Source: Escherichia coli (GTDB lineage Bacteria; Pseudomonadota; Gammaproteobacteria; Enterobacterales; Enterobacteriaceae). Taken from it: 64,000 nt of DNA. Positions 12,452-12,488 of the stretch are shown here, in pieces. The position numbers and the translations under genes were made by a program. Location: the NCBI RefSeq assembly GCF_044324875.1, contig NZ_CP172185.1; one strand, given 5' to 3'. The notes under the pieces are model-generated. The model searched no databases and was not told where the DNA came from. It saw only the letters and a program-made list of their open reading frames with translations. Each line of letters begins with the position of its first letter. Positions within the stretch are counted from its first letter, which is position 1.

Positions 12452-12488
12452 TACAAAAACAACATCCTGCACGAAGGCAGGATGTTGT
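12452..12488 (-). terminator. Intrinsic terminator/attenuator between hcp and vgrG
   Basis: On the minus strand, hairpin caacatcctgc-cttcgtg-caggatgttg followed by tttttgtac, 10-45 nt after the hcp stop. Confidence 0.55.

What the first reader, a model, noticed from the sequence alone, without database searches (positions are those of the whole stretch)
12452..12488. Intrinsic terminator between hcp and vgrG suggests attenuated read-through
A GC-rich hairpin followed by a T-run lies directly downstream of hcp and upstream of vgrG on the same strand. That would produce abundant hcp transcript and lower levels of vgrG, adaptor, effector and immunity mRNA by partial termination, fitting the stoichiometry of tube versus spike and cargo. 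There is also about 220 nt of spacer that could hold an internal vgrG promoter.
Basis: seen in the sequence. Interest (0 to 1): 0.4.

Follow-up and report, generated by a model that had tools for sequence, protein, structure and literature searches.

The report
Terminator hairpin after the hcp gene
The hairpin is a real, evolutionarily conserved transcription terminator at the end of the E. coli type VI secretion tube gene hcp; it is ordinary, because the matching element of E. coli O157 was tested experimentally in 2026.

Summary
On the minus strand, 9 nt after the hcp stop codon, a perfect 13-bp hairpin (12458-12489) runs into a U-tract (dG -20.3 kcal/mol, z -4.1). Only four comparable sites exist in the 64-kb window, against 0.17 expected by chance.

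The window is an E. coli T6SS island (100% identical to strain 118UI). hcp, vgrG and a DUF4123 adaptor gene are confirmed.

Across 24 sequences from more than 12 enterobacterial genera the hairpin is kept: 8 of 14 pairs show compensatory changes and 0 of 500 shuffles reach that value. The T-run is nearly invariant.

The homologous spacer of EHEC O157 ('h3R', Microbiol Spectr 2026) has been tested. Its hairpin region lowers read-through into vgrG3 and stabilises hcp3 mRNA.

So this is a new member of a known kind. 'Attenuated read-through' is only partly supported. EHEC shows almost no read-through, whereas 11 related loci leave only 22-36 nt between hairpin and vgrG, so there vgrG must be read through the hairpin. 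No convincing promoter lies in this spacer (best 8/12).

More interesting is a 105-nt block just downstream (12333-12437). It is more conserved than hcp third codon positions, occurs in about half of E. coli genomes, has no Rfam match, and its function is unexplained.

The parts
12499..13017 (-). hcp (tssD), 172 aa, T6SS tube protein
   Evidence: ORF. Pfam T6SS_HCP E=1.5e-32. Annotated as Hcp in the identical RefSeq record.
12458..12489 (-). T1 terminator hairpin: 13-bp perfect stem (12477-12489 with 12458-12470), 6-nt loop (12471-12476); starts 9 nt after the hcp stop codon
   Evidence: dG -20.3, z -4.1. Rare in the window. 93% of cells paired, 8/14 pairs compensatory, 0/500 shuffles. One copy per genome in 551 E. 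coli genomes.
12450..12459 (-). U-tract of T1 (UUUUUGUACG; the first two U are the last stem bases)
   Evidence: Sequence. GCTGTTTTTGTA is nearly invariant across 24 sequences.
12438..12449 (-). A-rich linker between T1 and the conserved block
   Evidence: Sequence. Only semi-conserved: identity 0.56-0.63.
12333..12437 (-). Conserved block 'E' (overlaps h3R region II of EHEC): a possible long imperfect hairpin with outer helix P1 (12416-12437 with 12333-12354) and apical hairpin GCCGG-AAAC-CCGGGC
   Evidence: Alignments A1, A3, A4. Folds at -38 kcal/mol, z -2.4. 88% of cells pair but covariation is not significant. No Rfam match.
12366..12409 (-). Near-invariant core of E: GGGAGATGGCGGATGCCGGAAACCCGGGCGGTAGCGTACCTGAA
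   Evidence: Identity 0.78-0.93 against 0.60 at hcp third codon positions. Unique in the window even with 3 mismatches allowed. More than 120 metagenome contigs. 2743 of 5426 E. coli genomes.
12294..12413 (-). 39-codon ORF inside the spacer, judged non-coding
   Evidence: The ATG is lost and 2-, 3- and 8-nt indels occur in relatives. Codon-position-1 variation N/Y/H/D falls on the hairpin loop base.
12312..12339 (-). Best sigma70-like candidate in the spacer (CTGGCA-N16-AAGAAT, 8/12); weak and lineage-specific
   Evidence: Custom scan. Nothing of at least 9/12 on this strand. Region identity 0.25-0.39.
12284..12290 (-). vgrG Shine-Dalgarno sequence (AGGGAGG), 5 nt before the ATG at 12278
   Evidence: Sequence. 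Conserved as GGAGG in the alignments.
10320..12278 (-). vgrG (tssI), 652 aa; its stop codon overlaps the start of the DUF4123 gene
   Evidence: Pfam Phage_GPD, Phage_base_V and Gp5_trimer_C. Annotated as a C-terminally incomplete pseudogene in the identical record.
9481..10323 (-). DUF4123 adaptor/chaperone gene
   Evidence: Pfam DUF4123 E=1.7e-25.

Best explanation
The hairpin is a Rho-independent terminator at the 3' end of the hcp message. RNA polymerase coming from the AT-rich divergent hcp/tssB promoter region transcribes hcp. The 13-bp stem then forms 9 nt after the stop codon, and most transcripts are released at the U-tract. The hairpin left at the 3' end protects hcp mRNA from 3' exonucleases. 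Hcp mRNA is therefore abundant and stable, and little transcription continues into vgrG, the DUF4123 adaptor gene and the cargo genes. Shown here: the structure, its rarity, its conservation with compensatory changes, and its homology to the EHEC element. Shown by others for the EHEC homologue: reduced read-through and stabilisation of the upstream message. Inferred: that the same holds in this ExPEC-type locus. How leaky the terminator is remains undetermined. Whatever passes it must also cross a conserved 105-nt block that contributes to the block on vgrG in EHEC.
For: Anatomy and energy. Only 4 such sites per 64 kb against 0.17 by chance. It lies on the coding strand 9 nt after the stop codon, and the other strand has no U-run. 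Across 24 sequences from more than 12 genera, 93% of cells pair, 8/14 pairs have double changes, 0/500 shuffles match, slid controls pair at 35-58%, and the T-run is nearly invariant. Nearly every one of 80 Hcp loci from Enterobacterales, Halomonadaceae, Vibrionaceae and Aeromonas has a strong hairpin within about 60 nt of the stop codon. It is single-copy per genome, so not a REP-type repeat. The spacer aligns at 83% mean column identity with the EHEC spacer. For EHEC, PMC13141884 reports no hcp3-vgrG3 junction RT-PCR product in wild type. Junction RNA appeared after deleting region I, and more after deleting I+II. hcp3 mRNA fell to 6% and Hcp3 to 50-85% without region I. In gfp-h3R-mCherry, deleting the region halved GFP and doubled mCherry.
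Against: There is no transcript data for this locus or lineage. The stem is only 46% G-C, and the U-run is interrupted after 5 U. The tool's consensus terminator scan did not call it. In EHEC, removing the hairpin region alone gave only a modest rise in downstream expression, so the hairpin is not the only barrier. The EHEC end-point RT-PCR across a stable hairpin could under-report read-through.
Confidence: 0.8

Rival explanations
1. Leaky attenuator. The terminator is deliberately partial, and read-through from the hcp promoter is the main source of vgrG, adaptor and cargo mRNA, which sets a high Hcp:VgrG ratio.
For: No sigma70-like promoter of at least 9/12 lies in the spacer; the best is 8/12 in a non-conserved stretch. 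In 11 related loci the hairpin ends only 22-36 nt before the vgrG ATG, too little room for a promoter plus leader, so vgrG there must be read through the hairpin. All junctions of the P. mirabilis hcp-vgrG effector operon gave RT-PCR products. The hairpin starts only 5-10 nt after the stop codon in the homologous loci. From general knowledge, a terminating ribosome that close can lower terminator efficiency.
Against: In EHEC no junction transcript was seen at native expression and only a trace from a strong Ptrc promoter. Several of the short-spacer hairpins lack a U-tail, so they may be stabilisers rather than terminators. Read-through has not been quantified in any homologue.
Confidence: 0.4
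2. Full stop plus separate operon (the EHEC authors' model). The hairpin ends the hcp transcript essentially completely, and vgrG is driven by its own, conditionally activated promoter inside the spacer.
For: Separate hcp3 and vgrG3 amplicons but no junction amplicon in EHEC; promoter and transcription-factor sites were predicted in region II. The conserved block E could be a protein-binding regulatory site: it is sequence-conserved without covariation.
Against: Promoter activity of the spacer was not demonstrated. Only a rise of under 2-fold was seen with one of many carbon and nitrogen sources. Indels of 2-3 and 8 nt inside the block move any hexamers relative to each other. No sigma54, sigmaE or sigma70 consensus fits at correct spacing (own inspection). 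No good promoter is found in this window.
Confidence: 0.3
3. Stabiliser or processing hairpin only. The stem-loop does not terminate transcription. It acts as a 3' exonuclease barrier after endonucleolytic cleavage of a long hcp-vgrG transcript, for example RNase III or RNase E cleavage in the long hairpin of block E.
For: Loss of region I cut hcp3 mRNA to 6% in EHEC. Some related loci have U-less hairpins. Block E can form a helix of about 22 bp, of the kind RNase III cuts. Deleting I+II gave more junction RNA than deleting I alone.
Against: The U-tract is as conserved as the stem, which a mere exonuclease barrier would not require. The anatomy is that of a canonical intrinsic terminator.
Confidence: 0.12
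4. Chance palindrome or DNA-level site with no RNA function.
For: The reverse complement folds as well as the sense strand.
Against: Rarity against shuffles. Compensatory changes in 8 of 14 pairs and G-U outnumbering A-C 28:7 in the stem. Fixed position after the stop codon in dozens of genera.
Confidence: 0.02

Closest known systems
h3R, the hcp3-vgrG3 intergenic regulatory region of EHEC O157:H7 EDL933 (Vazquez-Lopez et al., Microbiol Spectr 2026, PMC13141884)
   Same: Same chromosomal T6SS island type and gene order (tssB... divergent from hcp-vgrG). The spacers are about 210-220 nt long and align at 83% mean column identity. Both have a hairpin 8-9 nt after the hcp stop codon followed by TTTTTGTA. 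The same conserved block lies downstream (their region II) and the same GGAGG ribosome-binding site.
   Different: The stem sequence differs at several pairs, which are compensated. The window has an 8-nt insertion in the block. Its last roughly 60 nt before vgrG (their region III) is unrelated and lacks the U-rich tract that can pair with the ribosome-binding site in most other variants. The downstream cargo is DUF4123 plus an unknown effector instead of Rhs. No experiments exist for this variant.
Canonical E. coli Rho-independent terminators used inside gene clusters to give a structural subunit more mRNA than downstream genes (general knowledge, e.g. major-pilin genes of fimbrial operons)
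   Same: Stem-loop plus U-tract directly after the most abundant subunit's gene; the dual role of terminator and 3' stabiliser.
   Different: Efficiency here is unmeasured. It is followed by an additional conserved block that also limits downstream expression in the EHEC homologue.
Proteus mirabilis hcp-vgrG effector operons (Alteri et al. 2013, PMC3764213)
   Same: An Hcp relative (85% identity, locus L044) is followed by a hairpin and a T-rich tail, then vgrG and effector genes.
   Different: RT-PCR there shows co-transcription across the hcp-vgrG junction. The conserved block E is absent.
Vibrio cholerae hcp/vgrG auxiliary clusters
   Same: hcp precedes vgrG and effector genes. [quoted passage not shown]
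   Different: An earlier bioinformatic analysis predicted one promoter and one terminator for the whole hcp-1/vgrG-1 cluster. These clusters use sigma54/VasH-dependent promoters (general knowledge). There is no sequence homology with this spacer.

Membership tests
Rho-independent (intrinsic) terminator | Stable stem-loop (about 5-14 bp) in the nascent RNA on the coding strand | tested here: met
   13-bp perfect stem, 6-nt loop, -20.3 kcal/mol, z -4.1.
Rho-independent (intrinsic) terminator | U-rich tract immediately 3' of the stem | tested here: met
   UUUUUGU overlaps the stem end. The T-run is nearly invariant in relatives.
Rho-independent (intrinsic) terminator | Located just downstream of a stop codon, same strand | tested here: met
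   Starts 9 nt after the hcp TAA.
Rho-independent (intrinsic) terminator | Structure maintained by selection (compensatory changes) | tested here: met
   8/14 pairs with double changes; 0/500 shuffles.
Rho-independent (intrinsic) terminator | Produces RNA 3' ends / releases polymerase | not testable with these tools
   Only indirect evidence: the EHEC homologue limits junction transcripts.
h3R (EHEC hcp3-vgrG3 regulatory region) | Lies between hcp and vgrG of the chromosomal T6SS island and is homologous in sequence | tested here: met
   Alignment A1, 83% column identity. Same flanking genes.
h3R (EHEC hcp3-vgrG3 regulatory region) | Region I hairpin at about +8 of the hcp 3' UTR | tested here: met
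   Hairpin at +9 in the window and +8 in O157.
h3R (EHEC hcp3-vgrG3 regulatory region) | Region II / conserved block present | tested here: met
   Core 12366-12409 matches the pattern shared with O157. The exact region boundaries of the paper are not given in the text I read.
h3R (EHEC hcp3-vgrG3 regulatory region) | Region III (vgrG leader) homologous | tested here: not met
   The last roughly 60 nt before the ribosome-binding site are unrelated: identity 0.25-0.39.
h3R (EHEC hcp3-vgrG3 regulatory region) | Raises upstream and lowers downstream expression | not testable with these tools
   Shown for EHEC only.
Any described RNA family (Rfam 15) | Covariance-model match | tested here: not met
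   Nothing relevant at E<=10 in 11500-14500; only chance miRNA/snoRNA hits.
Structured cis-regulatory RNA (considered for block E) | Helices supported by covariation | tested here: inconclusive
   88-89% of cells pair, against 29-48% in slid controls. However, shuffles reach the observed values in 24-372 of 500 trials. The G-U:A-C count of 103:22 is biased by how the structure was derived.
Small protein gene (considered for the 39-codon ORF) | Start codon and reading frame conserved | tested here: not met
   The ATG is absent in most relatives and indels are not multiples of 3.
Sigma70 promoter in the spacer | -35 and -10 hexamers at 16-18 nt, conserved | tested here: not met
   No site of at least 9/12. 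The best is 8/12 in a non-conserved segment.

The most novel reading that the evidence does not exclude
The 105-nt block just after the terminator (12333-12437, core GGGAGAUGGCGGAUGCCGGAAAC...GGCGGUAGCGURCCUGAA) may be an undescribed, widely conserved cis-acting RNA domain of enterobacterial T6SS loci. It travels with hcp and its terminator and sits in front of whatever cargo genes follow, vgrG or Hcp-linked effectors. It would act as a second checkpoint on read-through transcripts, for example as a processing or decay site, a protein-binding leader, or a ligand-sensing leader. That would explain why vgrG stays silent in EHEC even when the hcp promoter is replaced.
Probability: 0.3. Interest if true: 0.55.

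Novelty: new member of a known kind. Interest (0 to 1): 0.3.

Why it matters
The hairpin explains simply how a T6SS cluster can make far more tube protein (Hcp) than spike protein and cargo from adjacent genes. It also explains why swapping the hcp promoter does not switch on VgrG and the effectors. That conclusion was reached experimentally for EHEC in 2026, so this locus adds breadth rather than a new principle. The added points are that the hairpin is conserved with compensatory changes across many genera, and that a hairpin after hcp is close to universal. The comparison does expose one open point: a strongly conserved block after the terminator, present in about half of E. coli genomes and at least 12 genera. 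Its mechanism is unknown, and it is a defined target for anyone trying to activate these silent T6SSs.

Tried and rejected
1. Small ORF in the spacer (12294-12413). Rejected: the ATG and reading frame are not conserved.

2. Known RNA family. No Rfam match. A full-text search for the core sequence found nothing.

3. Internal promoter. The tool scan and my own scan found nothing better than 8/12. Sigma54 (GG-N10-GC), sigmaE (GGAACTT-N16-TCTGA; GGAAACTT...TCTGA occurs in some variants but with a 13-nt spacer and is lost in the window) and sigma70 hexamers were inspected by eye and do not fit at conserved spacing.

4. Rho-dependent termination in the spacer. The minus-strand RNA is G-rich rather than C-rich (plus-strand GC skew about -0.2), so it does not look like a rut site.

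5. Repeat element (REP/BIME type). The hairpin occurs once per genome.

6. Covariation in block E. Tested twice, with 20 and 26 sequences including metagenome variants, and not significant. The metagenome set was retrieved with a pattern that fixes part of the core, so it cannot show variation there.

7. CsrA site at GGCGGAUGCC. That GGA is not conserved (GGCGGCUGCC in O157; GGCAGAUGCC and GGCGAGCGCC elsewhere). Only the GGA in the apical loop and the one in the ribosome-binding site are invariant.

8. Terminator/antiterminator switch between block E and a second weak hairpin plus U-tract seen in most variants. The strands overlap by only 1-5 nt, the window lacks that hairpin, and the folds are not better than shuffles.

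9. I did not build a covariance model. With a near-invariant core it would not have changed the covariation verdict.

Full report
**What is at the coordinates.** The window is E. coli DNA, 100% identical to strain 118UI over the region tested, and carries a T6SS island next to yafV. On the minus strand lie hcp (12499-13017), a 220-nt spacer, vgrG (10320-12278), a DUF4123 gene (9481-10323) and two unannotated ORFs. tssB to tssH run divergently on the plus strand. Pfam confirms Hcp, VgrG and DUF4123. The presumed effector and immunity proteins have no hits.

The hairpin is on the hcp strand. Nine nt after the TAA, the sequence AACAACAUCCUGC-CUUCGU-GCAGGAUGUUGUU forms a perfect 13-bp stem (12458-12489) that runs into UUUGUACG. 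The MFE is -20.3 kcal/mol, against -8.8 +/- 2.8 for shuffles (z -4.1). The opposite strand folds equally well but has no U-run.

The built-in terminator scan missed the site because it counts the tail after the maximal stem, and that scan finds no more sites than chance anyway (16 found against 16.4 expected). With stricter rules only four sites exist in 64 kb, against 0.17 expected, and this one has the longest stem. The only quibble is that the stem is 46% G-C, not especially GC-rich.

**Conservation.** The same hairpin sequence occurs once per genome in 551 complete E. coli genomes, so it is not a dispersed repeat.

Diverged versions of the island have the same layout, including O157:H7. 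A scan for Hcp relatives in one genome per species gave 80 loci. In 24 sequences from more than 12 enterobacterial genera the hairpin aligns well. On that alignment:
- 93% of cells pair.
- 8 of 14 pairs show changes on both sides.
- No shuffle in 500 reaches the observed values.
- Slid controls pair at 35-58%.
- G-U outnumbers A-C 28:7.
- The T-run after the stem is almost invariant.

More broadly, nearly all 80 Hcp loci carry a strong hairpin within about 60 nt of the hcp stop codon, including Halomonas, Photobacterium, Aeromonas, Dickeya and Providencia. This is strong evidence for a selected RNA structure, and the conserved U-tract points to a terminator rather than a bare stabiliser.

**What is already known.** A 2026 paper studied the homologous spacer of EHEC EDL933 and named it h3R (PMC13141884).
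- Region I is the hairpin ('+8 of the hcp3 3' UTR', 14 pairs), region II is a predicted promoter area, and region III is the vgrG3 leader.
- In wild type, hcp3 and vgrG3 amplicons were found but no junction amplicon.
- Deleting region I produced junction RNA, and deleting I+II produced more.
- Without region I, hcp3 mRNA fell to 6% on a plasmid, and Hcp3 fell to about 50% (plasmid) or 85% (chromosome).
- In gfp-h3R-mCherry the deletions halved GFP and doubled mCherry.
- VgrG3 became clearly detectable only when regions I and II were both removed.

The window's spacer aligns with the EHEC one at 83% column identity, with compensated differences in the stem. The finding is thus a diverged member of an element whose terminator and stabiliser roles were recently shown.

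Against it: read-through in EHEC was undetectable at native level.

For it:
- The spacer has no sigma70-like promoter of at least 9/12 on the right strand. The best candidate is 8/12 and lies in the least conserved stretch.
- In 11 related loci the hairpin ends only 22-36 nt before the vgrG ATG, which leaves no room for a promoter plus leader. There vgrG must be transcribed through the hairpin.
- In P. mirabilis all junctions of an hcp-vgrG effector operon are co-transcribed, and a P. mirabilis hcp locus also shows a hairpin with a T-rich tail.

The spacer RNA is G-rich, so a Rho-dependent stop is unlikely.

**The part that is not explained.** Starting 20 nt after the U-tract is a 105-nt block (12333-12437). 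Its 44-nt core is GGGAGATGGCGGATGCCGGAAAC..GGCGGTAGCGTRCCTGAA.
- It is nearly invariant across genera: identity 0.78-0.93, against 0.60 at hcp third codon positions and 0.25-0.39 in the following 40 nt.
- It is present in 2743 of 5426 complete E. coli genomes, once each.
- It is present in 22 of the 80 Hcp loci, with diverged forms in two Buttiauxella genomes.
- In those contigs, found by DNA pattern alone, Hcp ends about 96-104 nt upstream in 112 of 120. vgrG starts about 116-125 nt downstream in 94.
- It also follows orphan hcp genes whose downstream gene is not vgrG.
- It is missing from loci where the same type of hairpin abuts vgrG directly, so it is a separable module.
- It has no Rfam match.

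The block can fold into a long imperfect hairpin, at -38 kcal/mol with z -2.4 here and -44 kcal/mol with z -3.0 in O157. About 88% of cells pair, but covariation is not significant because little varies.

A 39-codon ORF overlapping the block is not conserved. Its equivalent is annotated in some STEC records (H51) and as EDL933_0238 in EDL933.

The block overlaps the EHEC 'region II', whose removal was needed to see VgrG3 and which increased junction RNA beyond removal of the hairpin alone. I infer that it acts in cis on read-through transcripts or on transcription itself. Whether it does so as an RNA (processing site or protein-binding leader) or as a DNA site cannot be decided here.

In most variants, but not in the window, a U-rich tract (UUUUCCUG) about 20 nt upstream can pair with the vgrG ribosome-binding site.

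**Verdict.** The hairpin is real, selected and almost certainly an intrinsic terminator and 3' stabiliser for hcp. It is an ordinary kind of element, and the closest homologue is already characterised. Interest is low to moderate. The conserved block next to it is the more novel lead.

Noticed in passing
window 12333-12437 (-), core 12366-12409: A 105-nt block after the terminator is more conserved than hcp third codon positions. It is present in about half of E. coli genomes and at least 12 genera, has no Rfam match, and shows no significant covariation. It overlaps the EHEC 'region II', which is needed to keep vgrG3 off.
   Followed up: yes
window 12294-12413 (-): A 39-codon ORF with a plausible ribosome-binding site lies inside the spacer. 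Equivalents are annotated as hypothetical proteins in some STEC records, but the start codon and frame are not conserved.
   Followed up: yes
L002-L004, L007-L010, L127, L145, L158, L183 etc., about 20 nt upstream of the vgrG ribosome-binding site: In most variants a U-rich tract (UUUUCCUG), preceded by a weak hairpin, can pair with the vgrG Shine-Dalgarno sequence CAGGGAGG, resembling an anti-SD or fourU-type arrangement. The window's variant lacks it.
   Followed up: partly
window 13060-13085 (-): A perfect 9-bp hairpin (AACCCGUCG...CGACGGGUU) lies 43-68 nt upstream of the hcp start codon, inside the presumed hcp 5' leader. A second small hairpin sits just before it. Their role is unknown.
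   Followed up: no
window 13300-13700: The divergent hcp/tssB control region is extremely AT-rich (GC 18-30%), the kind of DNA silenced by H-NS, as reported for the EHEC cluster.
   Followed up: no
window 10320-12278 (-): vgrG is only 652 aa and is annotated as a C-terminally incomplete pseudogene in the identical RefSeq record. Its stop codon overlaps the start of the DUF4123 gene by 4 nt, which suggests translational coupling.
   Followed up: no
window 39183-39214, both strands: A perfect 12-bp palindrome is flanked by A5/T5 runs (AAAAAGGCACCG...CGGTGCCTTTTT). It looks like a bidirectional terminator.
   Followed up: no
window about 3760-6500 (-), from the annotation of L001: Downstream of the cargo genes, the identical record annotates ISAs1-family transposase fragments interrupted by a group II intron reverse transcriptase (ltrA).
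   Followed up: no
hit H24 (ST1193 strain) and similar records: Some genomes match only from just after the hairpin onwards (query 203-501): the spacer block and vgrG are present but hcp and the hairpin are absent. This indicates a rearrangement breakpoint at the terminator.
   Followed up: no
L199 and L132, L155, L175 (metagenome contigs): In a few contigs the core of the conserved block has no recognisable hcp upstream. In L199 the 5' half of the block is replaced by unrelated sequence.
   Followed up: no
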